Origin: Zymomonas mobilis subsp. mobilis ATCC 10988 | GTDB lineage: Bacteria > Pseudomonadota > Alphaproteobacteria > Sphingomonadales > Sphingomonadaceae | Assembly (NCBI RefSeq): GCF_000175255.2 | Contig: NC_017262.1 | Span: 690,001 to 722,000, forward strand | Direction: 5' to 3' | DNA: 32,000 nucleotides | Shown: positions 5,017 to 19,719 of the stretch, piece after piece | Numbering within the stretch: position 1 is the stretch's first letter | Layout: each line of letters begins with the position of its first letter | Program-made: the position numbers and the translations under genes | Notes under the pieces: model-generated | The model's input: only the letters and a program-made list of their open reading frames with translations | The model's database searches: none | What the model was told of the DNA's origin: nothing

Positions 5017-6863
<1,847 letters not shown>

Positions 6864-6927
6864 TTCTGACTTAACCTATTTGGGTTAAACAGACTTATTT
6901 TTCCTGTTTTAGGAAAATAGTTAAAAA

Positions 6928-6961
6928 GGCGTTATTGGTTCTTCCAATGACGCCTTTTTTT
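6928..6961 (+). terminator. Rho-independent terminator after gfo
   Basis: GGCGTTATTGG / CCAATGACGCC stem (one G-U pair), loop TTCTT, then a T7 run. Confidence 0.8.
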
Positions 6962-7072
6962 ATAAACAAAAAAATCCTTTTGTCGGTTTTATAAAAATAC
7001 TTCATATTTTGATAAGCCGCCTTAAAAATATAATAAATTTTTATAATATTTATCCGATCAAAGGACCCCTTT

Positions 7073-8020
7073 ATGCTAGAAGTCATTATATCGGCATTAC
7101 TACCGATTATAATTACTTTAATGATAGGTTTTTTCGCTGGCTGGCGTGGTGAATTTACGGCAAATCAAGCCTCGACCTTGAATAAAATGGTCTTACGCTA
7201 TGCCTTACCTATGACTTTATTCTCTGGGATTTTATCACTTCCCAAAACACAGATTTTATCGTCGGGTTCTGCCGCAATTATTTTACTTTTAGCCATGGCT
7301 GGCGGCTATCTAATTACACTTGGGATAGGATATTTTGTCTGCCAGCGCCCAGTGAATGAATCTGCTCTTTTAGCTCTTTCTGTTAGCGCACCTGCAGTTC
7401 CTTTTGTTGGCATAACAGTTCTAGGGCATTTATTTGGCACTGCCAGCACGATATTGGTTTCAATATGTAGCCTGATGATGAACCTCGTGCAGGTTCCCGT
7501 TACCATTTTTCTTTTGTCAGCGTATTCCCCAAAAAAGAATACTGACAAAATAGCCACGGATAGTTCTTTTTTTTCTCATATCAGACATGCTTTTACCGAA
7601 CCTATTGTTATTGCCCCTATTCTAGCTCTTATCTGTGTCAGTCTCTCTATTCCTTTCCCTGAAACCTTAAAATCTTCTTTAATGCTACTAGGAAAAGCGA
7701 CCGGAGGCGTTGCGCTTTTCTCTTCTGGTATAATTTTATTTTCTCGAAAAGTTATTTTAAGTAAAACAGTAGCATCTTTAGTTTTATCAAAAAATATTAT
7801 TATTCCAACAGCGGTATGGGTTCTTGCGTCTATAAATAAAACCCCTCCCCTTATCATTGAACAGACAACAATCACTATGGCTATTCCCAGCGCAGCCATC
7901 ACAACCATGCTAGCCATCCGATATCAATTGATGGAACAGGATATGGCTTCGACTTTATTTTTTAGCACAATTTTATCTATTATCTCTATGGGAGGATTTA
8001 TTCTTCTAACCGCCATTTAA
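7073..8020 (+). CDS. AEC (auxin efflux carrier / Mem_trans) family permease
   Basis: 315 aa, about 10 predicted hydrophobic segments. The N-terminus and overall organisation are typical of AEC-family transporters. Confidence 0.7.
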   Translation: MLEVIISALLPIIITLMIGFFAGWRGEFTANQASTLNKMVLRYALPMTLFSGILSLPKTQILSSGSAAIILLLAMAGGYLITLGIGYFVCQRPVNESALLALSVSAPAVPFVGITVLGHLFGTASTILVSICSLMMNLVQVPVTIFLLSAYSPKKNTDKIATDSSFFSHIRHAFTEPIVIAPILALICVSLSIPFPETLKSSLMLLGKATGGVALFSSGIILFSRKVILSKTVASLVLSKNIIIPTAVWVLASINKTPPLIIEQTTITMAIPSAAITTMLAIRYQLMEQDMASTLFFSTILSIISMGGFILLTAI

Positions 8021-8083
8021 ATTATGTAAGGAGAGCCGGCTTTCTAGAATCGGAAATGCTACGTCAAAAAGGTTTTCTCTTTT

Positions 8084-9745
8084 ATGTCTGATACAAAGTC
8101 TACGGTGGCGAAGCTGTTAGTTAAATGCCTTGAAGCCGAAGGCGTCGAATATGTTTTTGGTATCCCGGGTGAAGAAAATATCCGTCTTATTGATGCCATG
8201 GCGGATTCTTCTATCCGTTTCATCCTGGTTCGCCATGAACAAGGTGCATCCTTTATGGCGGATATGTATGGTCGCCTAACTGGCAAGGCCGGTGTTTGCA
8301 CCGCAACCTTGGGGCCCGGTGCCATCAATCTTTTACTGGGCGTTGCCGATGCTCAAACCGATAGCACCCCTATGGTTGCCATCAGTGCGCAAGTCGGTCT
8401 TAACCGTATTTATAAAGAGTCTCATCAATATATTGACCTTCAGGGCATGTTTGCCCCTGTTACTAAATGGTCAGACACGATCCTGACGCCAGCATCCGTG
8501 CCAGAAATGATGCGGAAAGCCTTTGACCTTGCCCAAAGAGAGCGCCCTGGTGCGGTTTATCTAGCAGTACCACAGGATTTAGAAGAATCTGATGTCTCTG
8601 CGGATTTAAAGCCAATCACCGTCCATCCGGTTCACACAACAGCACCAGATCCTGATCAGGTAGCTGCCACGATTGATTTGATTAAGAAGGCAAAGCAGCC
8701 AATCATTCTGGCGGGTCACGGCGTTGCTCGTAGCCATGCATCAAAACAGCTCATTGAATTGTCTGAACTTTTAAACGTTCCGGTTGCAACTACCTTTATG
8801 GCAAAAGGTGTCATTCCTGATCGCCACCCCAATGCTCTGGGTGTTGCTGGCTTTATGCGCCGCGACTATGAAAATTTTGCGTTTGATGCAGCTGATGTCA
8901 TTTTGTCAGTTGGATATGAATTGCAGGAATTTGCACCTTCAAAAATCAATCCTAATCACGACAAAAAGATTGTCCATATCCATCATTTTGCTGAAGATAT
9001 CGATGCAGCTTATCCGGTAGCCATTGCTATTGAAGCGGATATCGACAAATCTTTGGATGCGTTGATTGATGGATTGAAGAAAACAACTTTCCCGAAATTC
9101 GACAATCATGCCAAAATTAAACAGATCAAAAAAGAAGAATTAGACGGGAATGCGGATGATCAGAGCTTCCCGCTGAAACCACAGCGGATTATCTCTGATA
9201 TCAGAAAAGCTATGGGCGATGATGATATCGTTCTGGCTGATACAGGCGCTATCAAAATGTGGATGGCTCGCCTCTATCCGACCCAAAAGCCTTCGACTTG
9301 TTTAATTTCAAATGGTCTCTCTACGATGGCCTTTGCGCTACCAGGTGCTTTGGCTGCTAAACTTGCCTGCCCTGACCGGAAAGTTCTCGCTGTAATGGGC
9401 GACGGCTCATTCCTGATGAATTCACAGGAAATTGAAACAGCTATCCGCGAAAATATTCCGCTGGTTGTGCTGATCTGGGTCGATGACGCTTATGGCCTTA
9501 TTAAATGGAAAATGGATCTGGAAATAAAGCATCACCGCGATGTGGACTTTACCAATCCTGATTTTGTTCAATATGCAGAAAGTTTCGGGGCTAAAGGCTA
9601 CGAAATCAAAAGTGCCGATATGTTGTTACCTGTCATTGAAAAAGCATTAGCCGATGATGGTGTGTCTATCATCGCTTGCCCAGTAGACTACGCAGAAAAC
9701 AACAAATTGACCGATAAATTAGGTGATCTGACGATCACAATCTAA
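8084..9745 (+). CDS. Thiamine-diphosphate-dependent acetolactate synthase, catabolic AlsS-like (no small subunit adjacent)
   Basis: 553 aa with N-terminal FGIPGEEN...RHEQGASFMADMYGRLTGKAGVC...LGPGAINL and a ThDP/Mg motif region (GDGSFLMNSQEIET). Confidence 0.8.
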   Translation: MSDTKSTVAKLLVKCLEAEGVEYVFGIPGEENIRLIDAMADSSIRFILVRHEQGASFMADMYGRLTGKAGVCTATLGPGAINLLLGVADAQTDSTPMVAISAQVGLNRIYKESHQYIDLQGMFAPVTKWSDTILTPASVPEMMRKAFDLAQRERPGAVYLAVPQDLEESDVSADLKPITVHPVHTTAPDPDQVAATIDLIKKAKQPIILAGHGVARSHASKQLIELSELLNVPVATTFMAKGVIPDRHPNALGVAGFMRRDYENFAFDAADVILSVGYELQEFAPSKINPNHDKKIVHIHHFAEDIDAAYPVAIAIEADIDKSLDALIDGLKKTTFPKFDNHAKIKQIKKEELDGNADDQSFPLKPQRIISDIRKAMGDDDIVLADTGAIKMWMARLYPTQKPSTCLISNGLSTMAFALPGALAAKLACPDRKVLAVMGDGSFLMNSQEIETAIRENIPLVVLIWVDDAYGLIKWKMDLEIKHHRDVDFTNPDFVQYAESFGAKGYEIKSADMLLPVIEKALADDGVSIIACPVDYAENNKLTDKLGDLTITI

Positions 9746-9756
9746 TATATTCTTAT

Positions 9757-9786
9757 AAAGCGTGGGGTATTATTACCCTGCGCTTT
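9757..9786. terminator. Hairpin between the convergent AlsS-like and EF-hand genes (candidate bidirectional terminator)
   Basis: AAAGCGTGGGGTA / TACCCTGCGCTTT stem (two G-U pairs), loop TTAT. A-rich on the 5' side and T-rich on the 3' side. Confidence 0.6.
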
Positions 9787-9831
9787 CATAAAAAGCTTTA
9801 AAATAATAAATCTCTAAATAAAATAAAGAAA

Positions 9832-10254
9832 TTATTTTATATCTTCATGATTTCGGCTTCTGTCTATAGAGGCAAGGTCTTCTTTGTTTAAAAATCCATC
9901 ATGATCTTGATCTGCCTGATCAAAATGTCTGACCGCAGAAGCGGCATACTCATCGAAACTCAGCATGTTATCATGGTTTTTATCTAGCCGTTCAAATGCT
10001 CTTTTGCGTCCAGCTAAATATTCATCGCGGCTTATTTTCTGATCATGATCTAAATCTAGATGTTCAAAATGCCGACTAAACTTATTATTTATATAAGTAT
10101 TTTTTGCATTTTCGGCATATATTCGTACAGGAGATGTCGATTTAATTGACTTTGAAATAATATCAGATGCTCGCCCCGAGCGGCATAATAAAAATACGCC
10201 AGAAGCAATAAGAATAGCGACTCCACCTAGAATAAATGGCAATTTATCTTTCAT
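9832..10254 (-). CDS. Small membrane-anchored or secreted EF-hand calcium-binding protein
   Basis: 140 aa with an N-terminal hydrophobic segment (LPFILGGVAILIASGVFLL). Three EF-hand-like loops: DLDHDQKISRDEY, DKNHDNMLSFDEY, DQDHDGFLNKEDL. Confidence 0.65.
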   Translation of the reverse strand: MKDKLPFILGGVAILIASGVFLLCRSGRASDIISKSIKSTSPVRIYAENAKNTYINNKFSRHFEHLDLDHDQKISRDEYLAGRKRAFERLDKNHDNMLSFDEYAASAVRHFDQADQDHDGFLNKEDLASIDRSRNHEDIK

Positions 10255-10409
10255 AATCTAAAAATCTTGTCTTTAAGAAGAGAAATCGAATATTAAGATT
10301 TGTCTTTAAAAATTTTATTACTTTTTATATCAGAAAAAATGAATTTCTTCAGCATAAAAATGATGAATAATTCATAAATGCCATGAATATTTCAAATATA
10401 AAATACTGC

Positions 10410-10430
10410 CTAGGTTCTGTTGACAAAGGA
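10410..10430. repeat. Left terminal inverted repeat of the IS (CTAGGTTCTGTTGACAAAGGA)
   Basis: Reverse complement of 11244-11264 with one mismatch. Confidence 0.85.
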
Positions 10431-10485
10431 TATAATTTAAAATTTTTAGAGATAAATTGAGAACAAGTTTTGTAGGGTAGACAGG

Positions 10486-10902
10486 ATGCGAGGAGATCTG
10501 ACGGACGCGGAGTGGGAGATAATAGAGGGTCTTCTTCCAAGCGAACGAGGCCGTTGCGCGCGTCCCGCCAAAAGTAATCGGTTATTTCTCAATGGTATGC
10601 TTTATGTGCTTCGAACAGGCTGCCCGTGGCGAGACATGCATGAACGTTATGGGAAATGGAATTCGGTCTATGTTCGGTTTCGTAGGTGGGCGGAACAGGG
10701 TGTGTGGGACGCTCTTCTTGAAACCCTGGTTGACCTTGGCCTGACAGATGACTGGCAACATATGATAGATAGTACGATTATTCGCGCCCACAGCCAAGCA
10801 GCTGGCGCAAAAGGGGGACGTATAAGGAAGGCTTTGGTCGCAGCCGCGGAGGCTTTACGAGCAAGATCCACGCCCGTTCCGATGGTCAAGGCCGCCCTCT
10901 AG
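10486..10902 (+). CDS. IS5/IS427-group transposase, OrfA (N-terminal DNA-binding part)
   Basis: 138 aa beginning MRGDLTDAEWEIIEGLLP...LRTGCPWRDM, typical of the DUF4096/IS5 N-terminal domain. Confidence 0.85.
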   Translation: MRGDLTDAEWEIIEGLLPSERGRCARPAKSNRLFLNGMLYVLRTGCPWRDMHERYGKWNSVYVRFRRWAEQGVWDALLETLVDLGLTDDWQHMIDSTIIRAHSQAAGAKGGRIRKALVAAAEALRARSTPVPMVKAAL

Positions 10903-11264
10903 CTTTCGCACTAACCGGTGGTGAGGTTTCTGATTATTCTGGCGCTGATAGCTTGATAGATATCCCTGTCACAACACCCCGCTGTTTTCTCGCTGATAAA
11001 GGATATGATAGCGATAGGTTACGCGAAAAACTGCTTTTTCGAGGCATTCTTCCTGTTATCCCGCCTCGTTCCAATCGAAAAAAGCCTATTCCTTATAATC
11101 TCCAGCACTACAAAGATCGTAATCGTATTGAGCGGATGTTTAATAAGCTAAAGCAGTTCAGGCGCATTGCCACACGCTATGACAAAACCAGAAAATCTTT
11201 CCTCGCCTTCCTTCATCTCGCGGCCGTAAAATTGTGGTTACCTTCCTTTGTCAACAAAACCTAG
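10809..11264 (+). CDS. IS5/IS427-group transposase, OrfB (DDE catalytic part), reached by a -1 frame change from OrfA
   Basis: The -1 frame is open from 10773. From the A-AAA-GGG-GG run at about 10809-10817 it reads ...GRSRGGFTSKIHARSDGQGRPLAFALTGGEVSDYSGADSLIDIP... and continues into the listed 10953-11264 ORF. The exact slip site is inferred. Confidence 0.75.
   Translation, partial: KRGTYKEGFGRSRGGFTSKIHARSDGQGRPLAFALTGGEVSDYSGADSLIDIPVTTPRCFLADKGYDSDRLREKLLFRGILPVIPPRSNRKKPIPYNLQHYKDRNRIERMFNKLKQFRRIATRYDKTRKSFLAFLHLAAVKLWLPSFVNKT
11244..11264. repeat. Right terminal inverted repeat of the IS (TCCTTTGTCAACAAAACCTAG)
   Basis: Reverse complement of 10410-10430 with one mismatch. Confidence 0.85.
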
Positions 11265-11438
11265 ACAAGGTTTATTATTATCATGCTCTGGAAAACTGAT
11301 ACCAATATGCTGGCTACCCAACCGCACTAATTCTAAATGCAGTAGAGAAAATAGCTTTTCCATGATAATATGAGGGGCTATTTCCTGATTAGGTAAGATA
11401 TAGATATCCTGATAGGAATCGACAGGATTAGCTAGCAT
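11262..11438 (-). pseudogene. cas6f: cas6f (csy4) remnant: N-terminal ~59 codons only, truncated by the IS
   Basis: MLANPVDSYQDIYILPNQEIAPHIIMEKLFSLLHLELVRLGSQHIGISFPEHDNNKPCL aligns by eye with the first third of Csy4/Cas6f (MDHYLDIRLRPD...LFGKLHQALV...RIGVSFPD). The reading frame then runs into the IS inverted repeat (FVDKGR-stop). The ATG overlaps the csy3 stop codon. Confidence 0.8.
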
Positions 11439-12471
11439 CCCCAAAGACTCCCCCTCTTACTAATACAGCTATCACAAAATGCTGGTCTTCGATTGCAGGC
11501 TCTTTATCTTTTAATACCCAAGCATCCAATAAATTGTAAAAGTCTTTTTTTGCCTTTGGCTGGCGATAAGCGACCCCTTGCGTTGTAACAGAGCCATAAG
11601 GTTCAACTGCAATCGGGCCATTGATTTCGGCGTCAGGATACCATGTATCAATAGTTCTTAAGGCATTCCCAATTTTTTGAGAATGAATAGCTGCAATCGC
11701 CTTTTCATCTTGACCAACGCTGTAGAGAAAACGGCTTTTCGTGCTTTTTCCTTTATCAAGCAGCAATTCCTGCGAAGGGAATACTTCCTGTCCTGCTCCC
11801 ATGCGAATAAAAGCTTTTACGCGGAGCAAAACATGTTCCTGCCCAGCTAAGCCTGCCGTTATCAGTTTCGCCAAGGCTTCTAACTCTTCTGAAACTGACT
11901 TCTCTTCAAATTGACGGAGAGGATGCGCTAATGCATCAAAAATACCGACTAGAGTTGATTCCTCACCGCTTAATCGAGTTATTTGAATAGATATAGCATC
12001 CGCACCCAAGCGATTCCGCCATAGGAAACGACCATTTGCCAAATTAGCAGCGTATCGATTCCCTAAAATATCAAGTCCATGAGTATCAATATAATGGCTG
12101 ATAGTAGCCACTAATTTAGAACGATACTCCATACTATTACAGGCAGCAGGCTCACCAACGCCGCCCAAAACACGCAAAGTAAATTCTACTTTCAGTGTAT
12201 CACTATCAAAAGGCAGCGTCGCAACATCCACCGTTTGCAGATTGGGCTTTTCGATAGCCGCCTTCAACTTGATTGGATCATCTCCAGTCTTTGAAGGAAT
12301 ACGGTTGGAAATTGTGCCACGAACCGATTTTTCGCGCAAATGAATTGGTTGCCATGCCGTATCATCGTCTTTGTCGCTCCAATTACCAGAAAAAAACAAA
12401 GCATCGGAAGGATCTAATTTACGCTCAAAAGATAGAACAGACGCTGTTTTTAAATTCTTTTCTTCAGACAT
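11428..12471 (-). CDS. csy3: Type I-F Cascade backbone subunit Csy3 (Cas7f)
   Basis: ASVLSFERKLDPSDALFF, REKSVRGTISNR, ANLANGRFLWRNR, IHSQKIGNALRTIDTWYP and IAVEPYGSVT closely parallel P. aeruginosa Csy3. Start taken at ATG 12471 (MSEEKN), not the upstream 12504. Confidence 0.93.
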   Translation of the reverse strand: MSEEKNLKTASVLSFERKLDPSDALFFSGNWSDKDDDTAWQPIHLREKSVRGTISNRIPSKTGDDPIKLKAAIEKPNLQTVDVATLPFDSDTLKVEFTLRVLGGVGEPAACNSMEYRSKLVATISHYIDTHGLDILGNRYAANLANGRFLWRNRLGADAISIQITRLSGEESTLVGIFDALAHPLRQFEEKSVSEELEALAKLITAGLAGQEHVLLRVKAFIRMGAGQEVFPSQELLLDKGKSTKSRFLYSVGQDEKAIAAIHSQKIGNALRTIDTWYPDAEINGPIAVEPYGSVTTQGVAYRQPKAKKDFYNLLDAWVLKDKEPAIEDQHFVIAVLVRGGVFGDAS

Positions 12472-12519
12472 AATAAAAACCTTCTTAATTTTCCTGAAAA
12501 ACAAAATATATAAGCGATA

Positions 12520-13533
12520 TCATAAAGAATATTGGTAAAAATTATGACAACGATAAACGCTTTTTTCTATAATATTCTTTTCCCCCAAGAATGAAGACGG
12601 ATACCATAATAAATCATTGGGGTGTTTTAGACGGAAAGGCGCAATCCATTCCCCTATCGAAAACAGGCTTTCAACAGGCTGGAAAGGAATAGTATTATCT
12701 CGGGCAGAAGATACCGATCCAGATGGCTGCATTTCACCGACTGCACCATAGCCAACAGGAATAGGGACGATCCAACCATTGTCTTGATCGTTTTCCCATA
12801 TATTTTCTTTTTTTGTTTCGGTTTTTGGAGATTGGGCTTCGCTTTTACACCGCCAATTGACGCGTGATAATGAAAGCCACGCATCCAAAGAGGTCGCCTC
12901 TGGCTGGGTCTCCTGCATTTTTTTTAAGCGTTCAGCAATAAGGCCACTTCGCTCAACCAGAGCATAGCCCGGCAAAAGACGATAACAATTTTTACGATAA
13001 TCAGAAAAGTTATTATCGTTATCAGAAGAAGTATTACATTCTATCCAATGCGGTTTCCTATGCTTCGCCATATTGGGAGAGGGAGGTATAATACTTCCGC
13101 CAGCAATACGCATATTTTGCGCAATAACAGCTATCTTTTCGACATACTCGTCAATTTGGTAATTTTCTTTACCCTCACCTTTAAAGGCAATAGCGAGCAA
13201 TAAAGAGACATCAAGATGGATACGCCCTTCTTCAATGATTGGCGCTGTTTTCCCGCCTTTTTCAATTGGATTACGCGTCAGATTAAAAGCATAAGTAAAA
13301 CCGCTATCTGTCACCTGCTCCTGAAAATCATGACAAATAACCCCCACTGCATTAAACATTATATCGTCAATACCAGCGGCATGAGCTTTGCGCTCTAATG
13401 CCCACATAAAACCCATAAAGGCTGTGATAGAAGGGAATCCATGCGTAAGCGGGCTAGAAATAGCATTGGCATTTTGCACCCTGATATGAGGCAAAATCAA
13501 CATATGGCTTGAGAAGGGTAATTCTGTTTCCAT
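12520..13533 (-). CDS. csy2: Type I-F Cascade subunit Csy2 (Cas5f)
   Basis: VQNANAISSPLTHGFPS and FNLTRNP motifs, 337 aa, in the expected position in the operon. Confidence 0.9.
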   Translation of the reverse strand: METELPFSSHMLILPHIRVQNANAISSPLTHGFPSITAFMGFMWALERKAHAAGIDDIMFNAVGVICHDFQEQVTDSGFTYAFNLTRNPIEKGGKTAPIIEEGRIHLDVSLLLAIAFKGEGKENYQIDEYVEKIAVIAQNMRIAGGSIIPPSPNMAKHRKPHWIECNTSSDNDNNFSDYRKNCYRLLPGYALVERSGLIAERLKKMQETQPEATSLDAWLSLSRVNWRCKSEAQSPKTETKKENIWENDQDNGWIVPIPVGYGAVGEMQPSGSVSSARDNTIPFQPVESLFSIGEWIAPFRLKHPNDLLWYPSSFLGEKNIIEKSVYRCHNFYQYSL

Positions 13534-13544
13534 GCAACTAACTC

Positions 13545-14879
13545 CTATGCCCGTCTACGCCACGGCACTGGCCATGCTGCATCTATGGTGACTTGTCTGA
13601 CCCAGTGAATATATTCTGTGTCGCCCACGGGTATATCTTGATGTTTCAGCTTCGCATTCAATCTACGCCCGAAATTCTGCGCCACGGCATCAGGCCAATC
13701 ACCTTTCATATACTCATTATAAAAAATCTGATCGGCCTCATCCGAACCATCACGAAGAGAAAAAAGGCTTCTTTCAGGGTCTAGCCATAATTTTTCATAC
13801 GGAGGCAATTGACAGCTATCCTCCCGACTCCACCCAACAGGCATTTCGGCTTTTATAGTCGCAGCAAAATCGACAAGGCTTTCTGTTAATTTCTGTTCAA
13901 ACCTTTGCCGATACTGACGTGTATTCAGGTTATCTGGCGGATTTGATTTCAGGAATTTTATCAATCTATCAACCTGACCATAAACGTCATCTCTTTTAAA
14001 AAAGACTTCTAGGGCTGACTTACAATTTAAAGGCAGAAGCCGTCTTTTATTCTTCCAACGAGGGGGTAAGGATGCCAAAAGGTAATTAACGCCTCCTCGT
14101 TCAAAATTAAGTTGCGATATATTTTGTGGCTTTGTCCCTCCCAGCCTTTGAACTGCCAGTTTTTTATATTCCTGATAGACTAACTCAGAGGCTTCTTTTT
14201 TATAAAAAGCCGATCGGGCTTCCTTATTACTCTCACCGAAACGTACGGCCTGAATATTTTGATGGACATAGTTAACTAATGCGCTCGGGAATAAAGGTTG
14301 CAGCAAAATATACTGATCATCTTCAGTCGGGTCTTTCCCTCGCAACCAATAAAGCTGCTTCATCAAGGCATGGGACTGCACTTTTTTATCCGAAGACAAC
14401 AAGCCGGCAAAAGAAGAAATCCATTCTTCTGCCTGATCAGGATTTTTAGACAAGGCCGCTTTAAAATCAGGATCACCTGCTTCAGCCCACGCTAACAAGG
14501 TCTTATCTTCAACCTTTGTTTTTAAAAATTTGAAGACATCCAAGGCGGCAGCATTACCGACAATATCTATATCAAAATTTTCACCTAAAAGATGCGATCC
14601 GATTTCTTCTCTCTGTGGTAGAGAATCCGGTTTTATATAAAGATTGCTTCCTTTAGCCGATGAATGAATAGCTTTGGCGATATGGGTAGCCGCATGAATC
14701 TGCCCTACTCTTCTTGCCGCATCTTCTAGCCAAATAGCATAGTCATATTTACGCATTGCAGCGAGATCATCTGCTTTGCCCTTCAATTTTTCATCACGAC
14801 GATTCTTAATAAAATCAGAAATAGCCTGACGAAAAATCTGTATTCTTGCATTATTATGCTGCATAATCTTTTCCATCAT
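13545..14879 (-). CDS. csy1: Type I-F Cascade large subunit Csy1 (Cas8f)
   Basis: GNAAALDVFKFL and GGTKPQNISQLN motifs, 444 aa, in the expected position in the operon. Confidence 0.9.
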   Translation of the reverse strand: MMEKIMQHNNARIQIFRQAISDFIKNRRDEKLKGKADDLAAMRKYDYAIWLEDAARRVGQIHAATHIAKAIHSSAKGSNLYIKPDSLPQREEIGSHLLGENFDIDIVGNAAALDVFKFLKTKVEDKTLLAWAEAGDPDFKAALSKNPDQAEEWISSFAGLLSSDKKVQSHALMKQLYWLRGKDPTEDDQYILLQPLFPSALVNYVHQNIQAVRFGESNKEARSAFYKKEASELVYQEYKKLAVQRLGGTKPQNISQLNFERGGVNYLLASLPPRWKNKRRLLPLNCKSALEVFFKRDDVYGQVDRLIKFLKSNPPDNLNTRQYRQRFEQKLTESLVDFAATIKAEMPVGWSREDSCQLPPYEKLWLDPERSLFSLRDGSDEADQIFYNEYMKGDWPDAVAQNFGRRLNAKLKHQDIPVGDTEYIHWVRQVTIDAAWPVPWRRRA

Positions 14880-14891
14880 TTCTGAATAATA

Positions 14892-17800
14892 TTAACTGTG
14901 ATATTTAGAAAATCCAAGAATATCATTATAATTATATCCAGATATACTTTCTAAAACATTTACTTTTGTCATATATTCAGCACATTTATACAGGGAAATA
15001 CCAAGATTTTCAGACTGTTCTTCTAATAAATTTTCAAGACTATCAGCCTGCCATGCGGTTATATCGGAGCCATAATCAATTTCGACCGGATGTTTTTTTT
15101 CCCGTTCAACAAGAATATACGGATTATGACTATTTTCGGGATTCTTATATTCCTGATAAAGTTCCAGTTTTTCGCCATCTTCGTCAGGTAAAAATAGAAG
15201 AGTCTCTTCTCTTAAGGTTTTTTCTCTAAATGGCTGCCATTGGGGCAAAACACCCGTCAGACTAGCCTGAGGATATTGCCAACAAAGAGCCGCCATTTCC
15301 TCTTTTGGTTCCAATTTTTTGGGAGAACGGCTACTACCCCCCACAACTTCTCCAAGGTTTTTCTCTGGCAACATAGATTCACAAATACGTGCTTGTTCCA
15401 GATCAGACATTCTTTCTTGGCTATGCCGCTCTTCTTTGGGTTGCGGAGCTATGCGAGGCAAAGCCGTGATAATCTTATATTCTTCTGGTCTTAAAATTTT
15501 GCTTAACCAATGATTTTCAAGATAAAATCGATTGTCGCCATATGGAGTTTTAGGCTTCTCAAATCCTGGATGCCAAAAAACAGCCCCTGCAGGATTTTTA
15601 AAATAACGCAGAGCGGTATTCAAAATAGCGATATTCGGTTTTTCAGCAGATTTTCTTCTATGTCGCTGTACACGCCCTGCCAATTGGATGAGCGCGCGCA
15701 TAGAGGAAGGTTCAGTAATCGCCCAATCCAAATCCCAATCACGCCCTACCTCGCAAACAGGCGATGCTAATATAATAAAGGCGTGATCCTGTTCTGGATT
15801 GTTATCCAAAATCTCTCGGATATCCGCATGATGATAGACAAAGTCAGCCTCGCGGCGATTCAGCACCCTATCCAGCATATTTTCGATAGCTGAACGCTGG
15901 ATTAGAGGGAAACGCGCATGGTAGACACATAAATGGATATGCGTATCACGGCGACCACCTAAGGCAAAAAAATCTTTTGCGACATGAAATAGCGGTTCAA
16001 TATTAGCCATTCTGATCAGACCGAAACTAACTTTTCTTCCTGTAATCGGGTCTTTTTCAGCAAAGCCTTCATGCAAATCCAAGGCAGTCTTGCGTAATAT
16101 TGAAGCAAAATTTTTATATAATACCTTATCGTCTGGCGTTCCAACCACCTCATCCAAAGGCACGATTTCGCCTTTACAGATAGCGTCACTTTTCAAAAGC
16201 TTCTGCTTACGCCGCTTTACAAAATCATCATGCGCCTGCTCAAACTGATTGGCATCGGCACAATCAGCATGAGTAGTTCCAAATTCGTCTATCCACAAAC
16301 AAGGGATATCCTGCGCTGCCAGAGATAGACTAGGGTCATGATTTAATTGATAGCATTTCCGACCGGCAAGATAAGCCTGATACATACCCGAGACCAAGGA
16401 AGGCGGTAATGTGGCTGAAGACAATAAAACACGACTACCCAACAGACCTGCCCAATAGACCAATCGAGTTAAGGCGGGTAAATCCTTCAAATCATAATCA
16501 TCCAATTCATCTAAAACGAGATCAGCCCCCATCAAACGCAGCATGGGTGCGATTTGTCGCCCGCCCCGCAAAGATTCGGTTGCAGGAACCAGATGATCAA
16601 CGGTACAAACCAGAACTGGTGCGGATAAAAGGCTTCGTATTCTAGGATCATGCCCCAAACGGCTCAATAAAGGATGGCTGGCTTCACAGCCTTCATATGA
16701 AATATAGCTATCTTCTTCCAATAGATCCAAAGAGGAAGCTGAACCAGATTCTTCAGCCTTATCTGAATAATAGTCAAATAGGGTTTTACTGGCACTTCCT
16801 CCAACTAAAATAGCCAGATCATTGTCATTCAGATGTAAATCTTTTTGATAAGATTTTCCGGTTTGCAAAGTGAGTGCTCTCAATCCCAACGCATAGGTCA
16901 GACGCATCCCTTTTTCAGGGTTGGCCATGGCATTGATAATACGAGCACTAGCAAGAGTTTTTCCTGTTCCCGTAGAGGCCATACAGACACAGAAAGCTCC
17001 TTGCCTTTCGGTTTTTTCGCGCAGGGCTGTCGCCATATCAGCAGCCTTATCTTGCCACGAAAAACGGGGATTCTGGCTTCTCTTCTTTAATCCTTTATGT
17101 TTGGCTAAACGGGGCAAATATTCAGAAAAATTCGGCAATGCATGGGCGATAATTCCGGCATCTCTTGCCACACCCAATAAATGCTCACTCAAGCCTTGTT
17201 TCCGCTCACCTTGACTGTCTGTGTTGGCATAAAGAAAATCATCTCCGCTATAAGATAGTTCTTTGGTAGCGGCCATACGGTCTTTTGATTCTGGAGGAAG
17301 GCTAGAATAATAGTGATCCGCCAACATCAGACTCAAACGTGCCAGATGCATAAGATAAGGATTATCAAGCCCGTTTTTTCCGATGTCTTTTTTCTTGGCC
17401 AAAGCCAATAAACGCTTCGCTATTCTGGAAGCCTGTTTTTGCCATTCCGGTAACAAAACCGGAAATTTTTCTTTTTTGTCGATATCCCAATAGGCTTTTA
17501 TTTGAGCTGGTGATGCCTGATTGTCAGTTATTTCATTCCATAAAGAGGTTATCTTATTTAATGGATCTGTGAGGATCCCAAGTCTTACCGATTGGGGCTT
17601 TTTACCCAAATAGGCCTGTTCTCTACGGTCTTTTTTTTCAATATAAACAGGCAGTAACGGAATACGATGATGAGAAACGATTAACCATCCAATCGCTGCC
17701 GCCAAAGGCGGTAAAGATTTAAAGGGATAGCAGTCCTCTCCATTCAAGGCATCGACTCCATCTTTTTTATACCGTTTTTTCGCCACCCAGTCTTTTATTG

Positions 17801-18332
17801 AATAGTTGCCTTCTAACAGACGGGTTAACCAGACCTCATCCGTATCCTCCCCGACGAAAGCCTGAAATAACCGTAAAGAAACCCATTCATGGCGGTATAG
17901 ATTACGAGATTTTTCTCTCGACTGCAGACGCCTTTGAAAAGCTTTGCTGGCCTTTCCCAAATCATGCAACAAAGCGGCCATTTGCGCCAACATCTGAATA
18001 TCTTCGGCGGTTATCCAATCATTTTCATCCTGTTGGCGTAAAATATTTCGGGTAGTGCTATTGGTCGGGACAGCGCCTTCATTATTAAAACGGCTGGCGT
18101 CCCCAACTATCCAAAGTAAATCACACTGCCCACCCCCATGTAACCAATGACAGGCAACAGAAGTATTTCGCCTTGCTGTTTTTCTCAATAATTTTTGAAC
18201 AGTAGCCAAGCCTATTTGCGTGATAGGCGTTTGCCAGCTTCGACTTCCCTTCCGTTCAGCAAACTGATCAAGGATTCGCCGCGTTTCTTTCAGAGCATTG
18301 TTGTCGCATTGCGAAACGAATAGAACATTCAT
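14892..18332 (-). CDS. cas3: Type I-F Cas2-Cas3 fusion nuclease/helicase (Cas2/3)
   Basis: 1146 aa. The N-terminal Cas2 part (MNVLFVSQCDNNALKETRRILDQFAERKGSRSWQTPIT) is followed by an HD motif (LLHDLGKAS) and helicase Walker A (ASTGTGKT) and DExD-like (VLDELDD) motifs. Confidence 0.93.
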   Translation of the reverse strand: MNVLFVSQCDNNALKETRRILDQFAERKGSRSWQTPITQIGLATVQKLLRKTARRNTSVACHWLHGGGQCDLLWIVGDASRFNNEGAVPTNSTTRNILRQQDENDWITAEDIQMLAQMAALLHDLGKASKAFQRRLQSREKSRNLYRHEWVSLRLFQAFVGEDTDEVWLTRLLEGNYSIKDWVAKKRYKKDGVDALNGEDCYPFKSLPPLAAAIGWLIVSHHRIPLLPVYIEKKDRREQAYLGKKPQSVRLGILTDPLNKITSLWNEITDNQASPAQIKAYWDIDKKEKFPVLLPEWQKQASRIAKRLLALAKKKDIGKNGLDNPYLMHLARLSLMLADHYYSSLPPESKDRMAATKELSYSGDDFLYANTDSQGERKQGLSEHLLGVARDAGIIAHALPNFSEYLPRLAKHKGLKKRSQNPRFSWQDKAADMATALREKTERQGAFCVCMASTGTGKTLASARIINAMANPEKGMRLTYALGLRALTLQTGKSYQKDLHLNDNDLAILVGGSASKTLFDYYSDKAEESGSASSLDLLEEDSYISYEGCEASHPLLSRLGHDPRIRSLLSAPVLVCTVDHLVPATESLRGGRQIAPMLRLMGADLVLDELDDYDLKDLPALTRLVYWAGLLGSRVLLSSATLPPSLVSGMYQAYLAGRKCYQLNHDPSLSLAAQDIPCLWIDEFGTTHADCADANQFEQAHDDFVKRRKQKLLKSDAICKGEIVPLDEVVGTPDDKVLYKNFASILRKTALDLHEGFAEKDPITGRKVSFGLIRMANIEPLFHVAKDFFALGGRRDTHIHLCVYHARFPLIQRSAIENMLDRVLNRREADFVYHHADIREILDNNPEQDHAFIILASPVCEVGRDWDLDWAITEPSSMRALIQLAGRVQRHRRKSAEKPNIAILNTALRYFKNPAGAVFWHPGFEKPKTPYGDNRFYLENHWLSKILRPEEYKIITALPRIAPQPKEERHSQERMSDLEQARICESMLPEKNLGEVVGGSSRSPKKLEPKEEMAALCWQYPQASLTGVLPQWQPFREKTLREETLLFLPDEDGEKLELYQEYKNPENSHNPYILVEREKKHPVEIDYGSDITAWQADSLENLLEEQSENLGISLYKCAEYMTKVNVLESISGYNYNDILGFSKYHS

Positions 18333-19306
18333 AATGCAGGCTCGGCCTCCATACTCAAAGCAATCTTTTTGATTGTATCAATCATAAAATCGAGCGATTC
18401 ACTATGGGTAAGAGCGGCTATAGATTTCTGCCTAAAAGACGATTCTTCATCGCCTGCCATCGCCGAAAGGAAGGCCTGCGGTAAGATAGTCGCATCTTTA
18501 ACCAGATCAGCGACATCAAACACCAACCCGCCGCGGCGTGTTTTCCCGTGCAGTATCGCCAATCCATGAGGAATTCCCAAAACCCAGGTCGCAGTAGCAC
18601 CAAGGCCATAAGCCAAATAATTTCCGTGATCTAAAAAACGGTTTGCAGGATCGATACCAGTTCCTCTTTTGGATCGGGTAAAATCGCCATATCCAACGGT
18701 TTCGGAGGCGAGCTTGAACAAAGCCTTTGTCAGTCTGGCTTCTTCGATCAAAAGCGTCGCAATATCAGAAGCCCTTTCTATCGCATGTTCGCTTTGATGG
18801 AGCAAAGCCGATAAACGGCGTTCATCAGGTAAAAAGCCATCTTTACCAAGAGAAGACTTAAGCCACTGTTCCTTTATACGACTGCTTCTGGCTAATTGTA
18901 ACGCTTTCACCGCCCGTAAACGCTTTTCGTCATCGAACCAGAATTTAACCCATGCTTGCACATATTCCGTAGGCCGATATTCGCTTTGTGGAGAAAACCA
19001 CAAAACATCTGTTTCTTGCTCATTCGCAGAAAATAACGGTGTCCCTCCGCCTCCACAAAAGCCAACCAAAACACCGGATTTTCCCAATTCACGCATAGCT
19101 GCCTGCGTTATGGATGTGCCCGTACCCAATAGAATAGTGGTCGTATTCGCTATAGGAATATTCCAATAAAGAGACTTGTTACCACGGTCGGTAATATATT
19201 CGACCCGTCCCCCATTCACCAAAACCCGACAATGCTCTAAATAATAGATATTTGCCCGTTTCGAATGTAAAATAGTTTTCAGATCGCCCGATGTTATTGG
19301 CTTCAT
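18329..19306 (-). CDS. cas1: Type I-F Cas1 integrase
   Basis: LKTILHSKRANIYYLEHCRVLVNGGRVEY, GTGTSITQAAMRELGKSGVLVGFCGGGGTPLF and LHGKTRRGGLVFDVADL are near-identical in pattern to I-F Cas1. Start taken at ATG 19306 (MKPITS). The stop overlaps the cas2-3 start (ATGA). Confidence 0.93.
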   Translation of the reverse strand: MKPITSGDLKTILHSKRANIYYLEHCRVLVNGGRVEYITDRGNKSLYWNIPIANTTTILLGTGTSITQAAMRELGKSGVLVGFCGGGGTPLFSANEQETDVLWFSPQSEYRPTEYVQAWVKFWFDDEKRLRAVKALQLARSSRIKEQWLKSSLGKDGFLPDERRLSALLHQSEHAIERASDIATLLIEEARLTKALFKLASETVGYGDFTRSKRGTGIDPANRFLDHGNYLAYGLGATATWVLGIPHGLAILHGKTRRGGLVFDVADLVKDATILPQAFLSAMAGDEESSFRQKSIAALTHSESLDFMIDTIKKIALSMEAEPAL

Positions 19307-19719
19307 AGAAAATCTTCTGTATCTACAATGGCTAATTTTATTATTAGAATGTAGACTGTTGTACATTTAAAATATTTTATAAATACTAAATAAAATCTGC
19401 ATTTTATATATTTATGACATATAAATTTATCACGAGAATTTTTGAAATTACATTTTTAAAACAAATATTTAAGACTCTTATTTATTTAGGACGAGCAATC
19501 GTAAATATTACAAACAGAAATAAAATATTTAAATTTTTAAAAAATAAGACTTGTCACTAAATTTAGCTTTCATAAAAATTTTATCCAACAGGTCTTCATT
19601 TTTACTTTGGATACCAGAAGATAATAGCAACCATTCTTCTGCTCACTGAATGCCTCAAATGAACAGAAATATGGACATGCCCATCCACTATCATATCTTG
19701 ACCAAGGAATACGGATAGA
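19307..19719. promoter_or_regulatory. Very AT-rich divergent intergenic region (cas operon promoter side and nitroreductase promoter side)
   Basis: About 400 bp between the minus-strand cas1 and the plus-strand nitroreductase gene. Long A/T runs and no CRISPR repeats. No specific boxes are claimed. Confidence 0.4.

What the first reader, a model, noticed from the sequence alone, without database searches (positions are those of the whole stretch)
11238..11444. cas6f (csy4) is cut off after ~59 codons by an IS element
The gene after csy3 starts like Cas6f (DIYILPNQEIAPHIIMEKLFSLLHLELV...IGISFPEHD). After ...NKPCL the frame enters the IS right inverted repeat and stops six codons later. Cas6f proteins are about 185 aa. 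The missing two thirds carry the arginine-rich RNA-binding helix and part of the active site. Without Cas6f, pre-crRNA cannot be processed or loaded into the Csy complex, so this I-F system should be interference-dead even though the other cas genes look intact. This matters practically, because endogenous I-F systems in this lineage are used for genome editing.
Basis: partly seen in the sequence, partly recalled or inferred. Interest (0 to 1): 0.75.

Follow-up and report, generated by a model that had tools for sequence, protein, structure and literature searches.

The report
IS-mediated deletion truncating cas6f
In the Zymomonas mobilis type-strain lineage (ATCC 10988 and derivatives), an insertion sequence sits where the last two thirds of the CRISPR RNA-processing gene cas6f used to be, so this otherwise intact type I-F system is very probably inactive; this is an ordinary gene loss with some practical relevance for strain engineers.

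Summary
On the minus strand, right after csy3, an ORF encodes 60 residues that are 100% identical to the N-terminus of the 193-aa Cas6f of other Z. mobilis strains. It then runs into the right inverted repeat of an 849-bp IS5-family element (10413-11261) and stops after six IS-encoded codons.

It is not a simple insertion. Compared with intact loci, 668 bp are missing: the last 403 bp of cas6f and 265 bp of the downstream spacer. Both breakpoints fall on adjacent CTAG sites, which this IS appears to prefer as a target. So the IS caused a deletion, and losing the IS could not restore the gene.

The window is 100% identical to strain uvs51, a derivative of type strain ATCC 10988. All five public contigs with this csy3 allele carry the same truncation. 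A 2018 supplementary table lists ATCC 10988 without csy4 and does not comment on it.

cas1, cas2/3 and csy1-3 are full length and show no relaxed selection, so the loss looks recent. I found no second cas6f, but the search was not exhaustive. Loss of crRNA processing, interference and probably adaptation is inferred from work on other I-F systems; it was not tested here. This is ordinary biology of modest interest.

The parts
11259..11438 (-). The native part of the cas6f (csy4) remnant: codons 1-60, from the ATG at 11438.
   Evidence: tblastn of an intact Z. mobilis Cas6f gives residues 1-60 = window 11438-11259 at 100% identity, and nothing else in the window. Pfam PF09618 covers profile positions 1-48/181. 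DNA is 179/179 identical to L003.
11238..11258 (-). The IS-encoded tail of the remnant ORF (FVDKGR plus a stop codon), read from the complement of the IS right end.
   Evidence: Translation. Junction comparison with L003.
10413..11261 (+). An IS5-family (IS427-like, NCBIfam transpos_IS5_3) insertion sequence of 849 bp. It replaces 668 bp of the ancestral locus.
   Evidence: BLAST against the intact locus L003 leaves exactly this block unmatched. The ends are defined by comparison with plasmid copies L010 and L011. Full-length copies at 92-96.5% identity occur on Z. mobilis plasmids.
10413..10430 (+). The IS left terminal inverted repeat, GGTTCTGTTGACAAAGGA.
11244..11261 (+). The IS right terminal inverted repeat (complement GGTTTTGTTGACAAAGGA). 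The cas6f frame runs into it.
10486..11264 (+). The transposase gene. orfA is 10486-10902; the orfB frame is open from 10773 to 11264. An A-AAA-GGG motif at 10809 fits a -1 frameshift that would give a 259-aa product. The TAG stop at 11262-11264 lies in the flanking target sequence.
   Evidence: NF033580 matches orfA at model positions 2-111 and orfB at 170-258. Reconstruction of the frameshift product. The public annotation gives a 259-aa product over 779 nt.
10411..10412 (.). TA flanking the IS on the left, inside a CTAG. It corresponds to the CTAG at L003 9878, in the spacer between cas6f and the EF-hand gene.
11262..11263 (.). TA flanking the IS on the right, inside a CTAG. It corresponds to the CTAG at L003 9205, inside cas6f at codons 59-60.
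10255..10412 (-). The remaining 158-159 bp of the ancestral 424-bp spacer upstream of the EF-hand gene. The other 265 bp were deleted together with the cas6f 3' part.
11428..12471 (-). csy3 (cas7f), full length at 347 aa.
   Evidence: PF09615 covers 1-328/328. 96% aa identity to Z. mobilis Csy3 P0002.
12520..13533 (-). csy2 (cas5f), full length at 337 aa.
13545..14864 (-). csy1 (cas8f), full length at 439 aa from the annotated ATG.
14892..18332 (-). The cas2/3 fusion, full length at 1146 aa.
   Evidence: TIGR02562 covers 1-1109/1110.
18329..19306 (-). cas1 (I-F type), 325 aa.
   Evidence: TIGR03637. Gene call in L001/L003.

Best explanation
In the Z. mobilis subsp. mobilis ATCC 10988 ('Drainas group') lineage, an 849-bp IS5-family element caused a 668-bp deletion. 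The deletion removed codons 61-193 of cas6f and 265 bp of the downstream spacer. What is left is a 66-codon remnant: 60 native codons and 6 IS-encoded ones.

Shown: the ancestral state is csy3, then a 193-aa cas6f, then a 424-bp spacer, then the EF-hand gene. It is preserved in other Z. mobilis strains and in a more distant Zymomonas MAG. The two deletion endpoints are two neighbouring CTAG sites, the sequence at which this IS is found flanked by TA.

Inferred mechanism: either two same-orientation IS copies inserted at the two CTAG sites and then recombined, or one copy transposed intramolecularly into the nearby CTAG and produced an adjacent deletion. The final sequence cannot tell these apart.

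Inferred consequence: without the Cas6f endoribonuclease, which also forms the head of the Csy complex on the crRNA 3' hairpin, the three remote I-F arrays of this strain cannot yield mature crRNAs and no Csy surveillance complex can form. Interference should therefore be lost, and by analogy with the P. aeruginosa I-F system, spacer acquisition as well. cas1, cas2/3 and csy1-3 remain intact because the event is recent.
For: Identity of the window: window 5428-18471 is 100% identical to VFOI01000001.1, which is strain uvs51, a derivative of ATCC 10988 (PMC8088579 Table 1).

Truncation: Pfam and TIGRFAM match only the first 48 profile positions. Residues 1-60 are identical to intact Cas6f, and no other part of Cas6f is encoded in the 32 kb.

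Deletion: BLAST to the intact locus L003 aligns window 13000-11260 to L003 7472-9209 and window 10413-9001 to L003 9878-11290. L003 9210-9877 has no counterpart.

Breakpoints: L003 8900-10100 holds only four CTAG sites (9034, 9205, 9878, 10061). The breakpoints are two adjacent ones, 9205 and 9878.

Target preference: two other copies of the IS, on plasmids, are also flanked by TA within ATAG or CTAG.

Polarity: the more divergent Zymomonas sp. W26 MAG has an intact 193-aa cas6f and the same downstream gene.

Not an assembly artefact: the 66-aa product and this csy3 allele co-occur in the same 5 public contigs. Three are longer than 1 Mb, and one short-read contig ends 24 bp inside the IS. The S1 Table of PMC5919020 lists ATCC 10988 with cas1, cas3 and csy1-3 but no csy4, and with three I-F arrays of 6, 3 and 8 spacers.

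Missing functional parts: alignment to Csy4 structures (2XLI and others, E=5e-44) places the Arg-rich helix and the C-terminal active-site region beyond residue 60.

Functional precedent: a Csy4 H29A mutation abolishes crRNA-dependent spacer acquisition in the P. aeruginosa I-F system (PMC4678832). ZM4, which has cas6, makes mature crRNAs and shows interference (PMC6868425).

Recency: the other cas genes have no stop codons, and pairwise dN/dS is 0.15-0.27. On the window's own branch there are 37 synonymous and 10 nonsynonymous changes, against 27 and 13 on the intact lineage.
Against: No functional data exist for this strain, so loss of interference is an inference. A divergent Cas6-type nuclease elsewhere in the genome is not rigorously excluded. 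The genome scan only detects copies that share exact 8-residue peptides, and it is only my inference that the species representative in that collection is this lineage with the window masked. The ATCC 10988 plasmids did not appear among the PLSDB hits, so one search does not cover them for certain. The order of events and the exact deletion mechanism cannot be recovered from the final sequence. Continued purifying selection on the remaining cas genes would also fit some retained function.
Confidence: 0.87

Rival explanations
1. Simple IS insertion, which is the literal reading of the finding. The IS merely interrupts cas6f and the rest of the gene lies on its other side, so precise excision could restore it.
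For: The IS is flanked by TA on both sides, as a fresh insertion with a 2-bp target duplication would be.
Against: The sequence left of the IS (10412 downward) aligns to L003 from 9878, which is intergenic DNA 265 bp past the cas6f stop. It does not align to cas6f codon 61. tblastn finds no trace of Cas6f residues 61-193 anywhere in the window. Only about 159 bp separate the IS from the next gene.
Confidence: 0.02
2. Assembly artefact. A multi-copy IS was collapsed or misjoined during assembly, and the real genome has an intact cas6f.
For: The IS is repeated in this genome: a short-read contig breaks at it. Repeats are classic sites of misassembly.
Against: Five contigs from separate records show the same junction. 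Three of them exceed 1 Mb and read through the IS into the EF-hand side. An independent short-read contig contains the cas6f-IS junction itself. The published cas gene list for the finished ATCC 10988 genome lacks csy4. Both junctions fall on CTAG sites, as expected for real transposase activity.
Confidence: 0.03
3. The truncation is real but the system still works, because Cas6f activity is supplied in trans by a second cas6f or cas6 gene on the chromosome or a plasmid, or by host RNases.
For: The remaining five cas genes are intact and show no relaxed selection. The strain keeps three I-F arrays.
Against: No Cas6f homologue was found on any Zymomonas plasmid in PLSDB at E<=1e-3. The species-representative genome scan with full-length Cas6f found only a MAG of another Zymomonas. 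The published cas inventory of ATCC 10988 has no csy4. From my own knowledge: Cas6f is a stoichiometric subunit of the Csy complex as well as a nuclease, and no Cas6f-independent I-F1 system is known.
Confidence: 0.06

Closest known systems
The type I-F1 CRISPR-Cas operon of Zymomonas mobilis ZM4 (cas1-cas2/3-csy1-csy2-csy3-csy4; Zheng et al. 2019, PMC6868425)
   Same: Same species, same chromosomal position between the nitroreductase and EF-hand genes, and same gene order. The arrays are remote. Csy3 is 96% identical to that of intact-locus Z. mobilis strains of unstated identity (L003-L006). The first 60 Cas6f residues are identical to theirs.
   Different: Here cas6f ends after codon 60, and 668 bp are replaced by an IS. 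ZM4 has an intact cas6 and shows crRNA maturation and interference.
P. aeruginosa Csy4/Cas6f (PDB 2XLI, 2XLK, 4AL5; Csy complex 6B44)
   Same: The intact Z. mobilis Cas6f aligns end to end (E=5e-44). The remnant keeps the position equivalent to the catalytic His29.
   Different: The remnant lacks about 70% of the fold, including the Arg-rich RNA-binding helix and the C-terminal active-site residues.
IS5-family, IS427-group insertion sequences (NCBIfam NF033580 transpos_IS5_3), and adjacent deletions as described for IS903 (own knowledge)
   Same: A length of about 850 bp, terminal inverted repeats starting with GG, a two-frame transposase with an A-AAA-G type slippery site, and TA flanks within xTAG targets. 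One IS copy is left bordering a deletion.
   Different: I could not assign a formal ISfinder name. The nearest copies, on ZM4 and NCIMB 11163 plasmids, are 92-96.5% identical and none is identical.
IS-inactivated cas genes in other bacteria (a general phenomenon; own knowledge)
   Same: A mobile element knocks out one essential cas gene while the rest of the locus still looks complete.
   Different: Nothing in principle. This is another instance.

Membership tests
Cas6f/Csy4 endoribonuclease (PF09618, TIGR02563) | Sequence match to the family model above the curated cut-off | tested here: met
   PF09618 scores 50.5 bits against a cut-off of 25. TIGR02563 scores 37.0 bits against 36.25.
Cas6f/Csy4 endoribonuclease (PF09618, TIGR02563) | Full-length domain of about 181-193 aa | tested here: not met
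   Only profile positions 1-48 of 181 are matched. Only residues 1-60 of 193 are encoded in the window. It is a gene remnant, not a functional family member.
Cas6f/Csy4 endoribonuclease (PF09618, TIGR02563) | Catalytic His (P. aeruginosa His29) | tested here: met
   His34 of the Z. mobilis protein aligns with His29 of 2XLI, and it lies within the retained 60 residues.
Cas6f/Csy4 endoribonuclease (PF09618, TIGR02563) | Arg-rich RNA-binding helix and C-terminal active-site residues (P. aeruginosa R102/Q104, R114-H120, S148/S150, Y176; residue roles from my own knowledge) | tested here: not met
   In the alignment these positions fall at Z. mobilis residues of about 107-181, all beyond residue 60 and absent from the window.
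Type I-F1 CRISPR-Cas system | cas1, a cas2-cas3 fusion, cas8f/csy1, cas5f/csy2 and cas7f/csy3 in one operon | tested here: met
   All five are full length with equivalog-level NCBIfam matches.
Type I-F1 CRISPR-Cas system | A functional cas6f | tested here: not met
   Truncated after codon 60.
Type I-F1 CRISPR-Cas system | A CRISPR array with the 28-nt I-F repeat | tested here: not met
   The window has no match to GTTCACTGCCGCACAGGCAGCTTAGAAA at up to 3 mismatches and no tandem array. According to PMC5919020 S1 Table, ATCC 10988 has three remote arrays; I did not verify this on sequence.
Type I-F1 CRISPR-Cas system | crRNA maturation and PAM-dependent interference | not testable with these tools
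   This needs RNA-seq or northern blots and plasmid-interference assays in ATCC 10988.
IS5 family, IS427-like group (NF033580) | A DDE transposase matching the family model over its full length | tested here: met
   orfA covers model positions 2-111 and orfB covers 170-258 of 258. A -1 shift at A-AAA-GGG (10809) gives an uninterrupted 259-aa product.
IS5 family, IS427-like group (NF033580) | Terminal inverted repeats and a short target-site duplication | tested here: met
   18-bp inverted repeats matching at 17/18. TA flanks both sides of this copy and of two plasmid copies. Here the two TA dinucleotides come from different CTAG sites.

The most novel reading that the evidence does not exclude
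The most novel reading not excluded is that the Cas6f-less module (cas1, cas2/3, csy1-3) is kept under selection because it still does something. It might use crRNAs matured by a host RNase, or act in a crRNA-independent role. That would be the first naturally Cas6f-independent type I-F1 system. A smaller variant is that the IS left end supplies an outward promoter for the EF-hand gene, whose native upstream region was largely deleted.
Probability: 0.03. Interest if true: 0.6.

Novelty: already known. Interest (0 to 1): 0.2.

Why it matters
The practical value is for Zymomonas engineers. The native type I-F genome-editing toolkit was built in ZM4. It should fail in the type strain ATCC 10988 and its derivatives (CU1, CU1rif2, uvs51) unless cas6f is supplied in trans. 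Comparative papers that call this strain's I-F locus 'complete' should be read with that in mind. For the wider field it is a clean, well-polarised example of an IS-mediated deletion disabling CRISPR immunity. Both breakpoints sit on sites the IS appears to prefer as targets, and the event looks recent. It raises no new principle.

Tried and rejected
1. A protein search with the 61-aa fragment returned only a 42-aa copy of itself. It gave no information.
2. A genome-contig scan with Csy3 found nothing. With, this suggests the species representative's cas locus is masked in that collection. This is an inference, so I give the 'no second copy' result little weight.
3. An exact look-up of the IS orfA product found no record. 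I therefore could not map other IS copies, or find an intermediate strain with the IS in cas6f and no deletion.
4. Look-ups of ATCC 10988 plasmids by guessed accessions failed. None appears among the PLSDB hits for the IS. The plasmid tblastn therefore may not cover this strain's plasmids.
5. Promoter and terminator scans of the junction and of the deleted spacer gave promoter-like hit counts within about two standard deviations of shuffled sequence. I treated them, and the two overlapping terminator-like hits at the 3' end of intact cas6f, as not informative.
6. I tested for relaxed selection on the surviving cas genes with the W26 MAG as outgroup. There was no signal (37 synonymous/10 nonsynonymous against 27/13, Fisher p=0.33).
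7. I rejected the simple-insertion model and the assembly-artefact model; see the rival explanations.
8. I ran no further search on full-length Cas6f. A divergent second copy in this particular genome could not have been recognised from its output.
Full report
WHAT IS IN THE SEQUENCE

The minus strand of the window carries a type I-F cas operon:
- cas1, 18329-19306
- the cas2/3 fusion, 14892-18332
- csy1, 13545-14864
- csy2, 12520-13533
- csy3, 11428-12471

Each of these matches its Pfam and NCBIfam model end to end.

The mechanical ORF starts at a TTG. The biologically sensible start is the ATG at 11438, which overlaps the end of csy3 by 11 nt, exactly as cas6f does in intact relatives. The 66-aa product matches Cas_Csy4 (PF09618, E=3.5e-13; TIGR02563, 37.0 bits), but only over profile positions 1-48 of 181.

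Immediately beyond it is an 849-bp IS5-family element at 10413-11261.
- Its 18-bp terminal inverted repeats are GGTTCTGTTGACAAAGGA and GGTTTTGTTGACAAAGGA.
- Its transposase is read in two frames. orfA is 10486-10902, and the orfB frame is open from 10773 to 11264. A -1 shift at the A-AAA-GGG motif at 10809 joins them into an uninterrupted 259-aa protein.

The cas6f frame reads 60 native codons (…NKPCLG), enters the right inverted repeat, adds FVDKGR and stops.

WHERE THE WINDOW COMES FROM

An exact look-up of the Csy3 protein found it on five public contigs. Window 5428-18471 is 100% identical over 13,044 bp to VFOI01000001.1. Table 1 of PMC8088579 identifies that record as Z. mobilis strain uvs51. 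This is a laboratory derivative of the type strain ATCC 10988, and the paper places it in the 'Drainas group'. The flanking genes, including glucose-fructose oxidoreductase, fit Zymomonas.

IT IS A DELETION, NOT JUST AN INSERTION

Other Z. mobilis strains carry a Csy3 that is 96% identical (P0002). In them the order is csy3, a 193-aa cas6f, a 424-bp spacer, and then the same EF-hand gene that lies next to the IS in the window (L003-L006).

BLAST of the window against L003 gives two blocks:
- window 13000-11260 aligns to L003 7472-9209;
- window 10413-9001 aligns to L003 9878-11290.

The 849-bp IS lies between them in the window. L003 9210-9877 has no counterpart. Those 668 bp comprise the last 403 bp of cas6f and 265 bp of the spacer. 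tblastn with the intact Cas6f finds residues 1-60 at 100% identity and nothing of residues 61-193 anywhere in the 32 kb. The missing two thirds of the gene are gone, not displaced, and loss of the IS could not restore them.

HOW IT PROBABLY HAPPENED

In L003 the breakpoints are CCTTGT-CTAG-GAAGC (CTAG at 9205, cas6f codons 59-60) and AAAATA-CTAG-GCAGT (CTAG at 9878). The 1.2 kb around them contains only four CTAG sites (9034, 9205, 9878 and 10061), and the breakpoints are two neighbouring ones.

Two other copies of this IS, on plasmids of strains ER79ag and NCIMB 11163, are likewise flanked by TA within ATAG or CTAG. So both ends of the deletion sit on the kind of site where other copies of the element are found. 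This points to transposase action at both ends rather than random breakage.

Two classical routes give this product, and the final sequence cannot separate them:
- two same-orientation copies inserted at the two CTAG sites and then recombined, losing the segment between them and one copy;
- one copy transposed intramolecularly into the nearby CTAG and produced an adjacent deletion.

The ancestral state is not in doubt. A more distant Zymomonas, MAG W26 (L007), also has a full 193-aa cas6f followed by the EF-hand gene.

IS IT REAL, AND HOW WIDESPREAD IS IT?

The 66-aa product occurs on exactly the same five contigs as this csy3 allele. Three of them are longer than 1 Mb. One independent short-read contig (SRR066225) contains the cas6f-IS junction and breaks 24 bp into the IS, as expected for a multi-copy repeat.

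The supplementary table of PMC5919020 lists the cas genes of the finished ATCC 10988 genome as cas1, cas3, csy1, csy2 and csy3. ZM4, CP4, NRRL B-12526, NCIMB 11163 and ATCC 29191 all have csy4 in that table. The same table records three I-F arrays for ATCC 10988 with 6, 3 and 8 spacers.

The loss was therefore tabulated in print but never discussed. PMC5294841 and PMC8088579 treat the locus as a normal I-F system. An assembly artefact is very unlikely.

WHAT IS LOST FUNCTIONALLY

The intact Z. mobilis Cas6f aligns end to end with P. aeruginosa Csy4 structures (2XLI and others, E=5e-44). The remnant keeps His34, the equivalent of the catalytic His29. Everything from residue 61 onward is missing. 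That includes the arginine-rich helix (SPARLRRRAIRRH) and the C-terminal segment that aligns with Ser148/Ser150/Tyr176; the roles of those residues are from my own knowledge of the Csy4 literature.

Cas6f cuts the pre-crRNA and stays bound to the 3' hairpin as a subunit of the Csy complex. In the P. aeruginosa I-F system even a point mutant, Csy4 H29A, abolishes spacer acquisition because mature crRNA is needed (PMC4678832). In ZM4, which has cas6, mature crRNAs and interference were demonstrated (PMC6868425).

The inference is that this lineage can neither mature crRNAs nor interfere, and probably cannot adapt. I consider this strong, at about 0.85-0.9, but it has not been tested in this strain.

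IS THERE A BACKUP COPY?

I found none, and the check is incomplete.
- The window encodes no other Cas6f sequence.
- No Zymomonas plasmid in PLSDB has a Cas6f homologue at E<=1e-3. ATCC 10988's own plasmids did not appear among the PLSDB hits and may not be in that collection.
- A scan of one genome per species with full-length Cas6f returned only the W26 MAG. It did not return the window's own fragment, which contains two of the search peptides. The Z. mobilis representative therefore appears to be masked at this locus. The absence of a second hit elsewhere is weak evidence, and it applies only to near-identical copies.
- The published cas inventory is independent support.

AGE OF THE EVENT

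The five remaining cas genes have no stop codons or frameshifts. Pairwise dN/dS against the intact lineage is 0.15-0.27. With W26 as outgroup, the window's branch carries 37 synonymous and 10 nonsynonymous changes, against 27 and 13 on the intact branch (Fisher p=0.33). The 179-nt cas6f remnant has no substitution relative to L003. Nothing indicates decay, so the loss is recent on the scale of strain divergence. It could even have arisen in culture; I cannot tell which.

COMPARISON WITH WHAT IS KNOWN, AND VERDICT

The locus is the Z. mobilis I-F1 system already characterised in ZM4, minus a working cas6f. The element is an ordinary IS5-family, IS427-like IS that is common on Z. mobilis plasmids (35 plasmid records at 81-96.5% identity). 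IS-mediated inactivation of a cas gene is a familiar phenomenon.

The editing relevance also applies to ZM4, not to this strain.

Novelty is low, because the absence of csy4 in ATCC 10988 is already visible in a published supplementary table and in public gene calls. Interest is modest and mainly practical. Anyone who wants to use the native I-F toolkit in the type strain or its derivatives should supply cas6f in trans.

Noticed in passing
L007 2521-7446 compared with L003 5608-10459: In the Zymomonas sp. W26 MAG, cas6f is 96% identical in DNA to Z. mobilis cas6f. csy1, csy2 and csy3 are only 69%, 66% and 77% identical, and the downstream EF-hand gene is 92%. This looks like a sharp recombination boundary at the csy3/cas6f junction: the Csy1-3 module appears to have been swapped or to have diverged fast, while cas6f stayed with the conserved flank.
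   Followed up: partly
window 11260-19500 compared with L003: Divergence between two Z. mobilis lineages is mosaic along the cas operon. Most 300-nt windows over cas1 and the 5' half of cas2/3 are about 99% identical. The 3' half of cas2/3 through csy3 is mostly 92-97% in 300-nt windows. The cas6f remnant is 179/179 identical, and the flanks are about 99%. This suggests recombination within the operon.
   Followed up: partly
window 11259-11264; also L010 and L011 right ends: The transposase reading frame runs through the IS right end (ACC at 11259-11261). Its TAG stop codon is supplied by the flanking target sequence (TA plus G of xTAG). The two plasmid copies examined show the same arrangement.
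   Followed up: partly
window 10395-10423 (minus strand) and 9832-10254: The EF-hand gene lost 265 of the 424 bp upstream of it. A weak outward-facing promoter-like site (TCAACA-17-TATATT, 9 of 12 matches) spans the IS left end and the flank, and points at the gene. Promoter-like hits in this region were only modestly more frequent than in shuffled sequence, so this is only a lead.
   Followed up: no
PMC5919020 S1 Table (literature, not the window): The same table lists NRRL B-1960 with only cas1, csy1, csy2 and csy3, without cas3 or csy4. This may be an annotation gap or another defective I-F locus. I did not check it.
   Followed up: no
window 19367-19700: There is a very AT-rich stretch (GC 22-25%) between cas1 and the divergently oriented nitroreductase gene. 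It is probably the cas operon promoter region. The first 300 nt here are also the most divergent part of the alignment with L003, at 90% identity.
   Followed up: no
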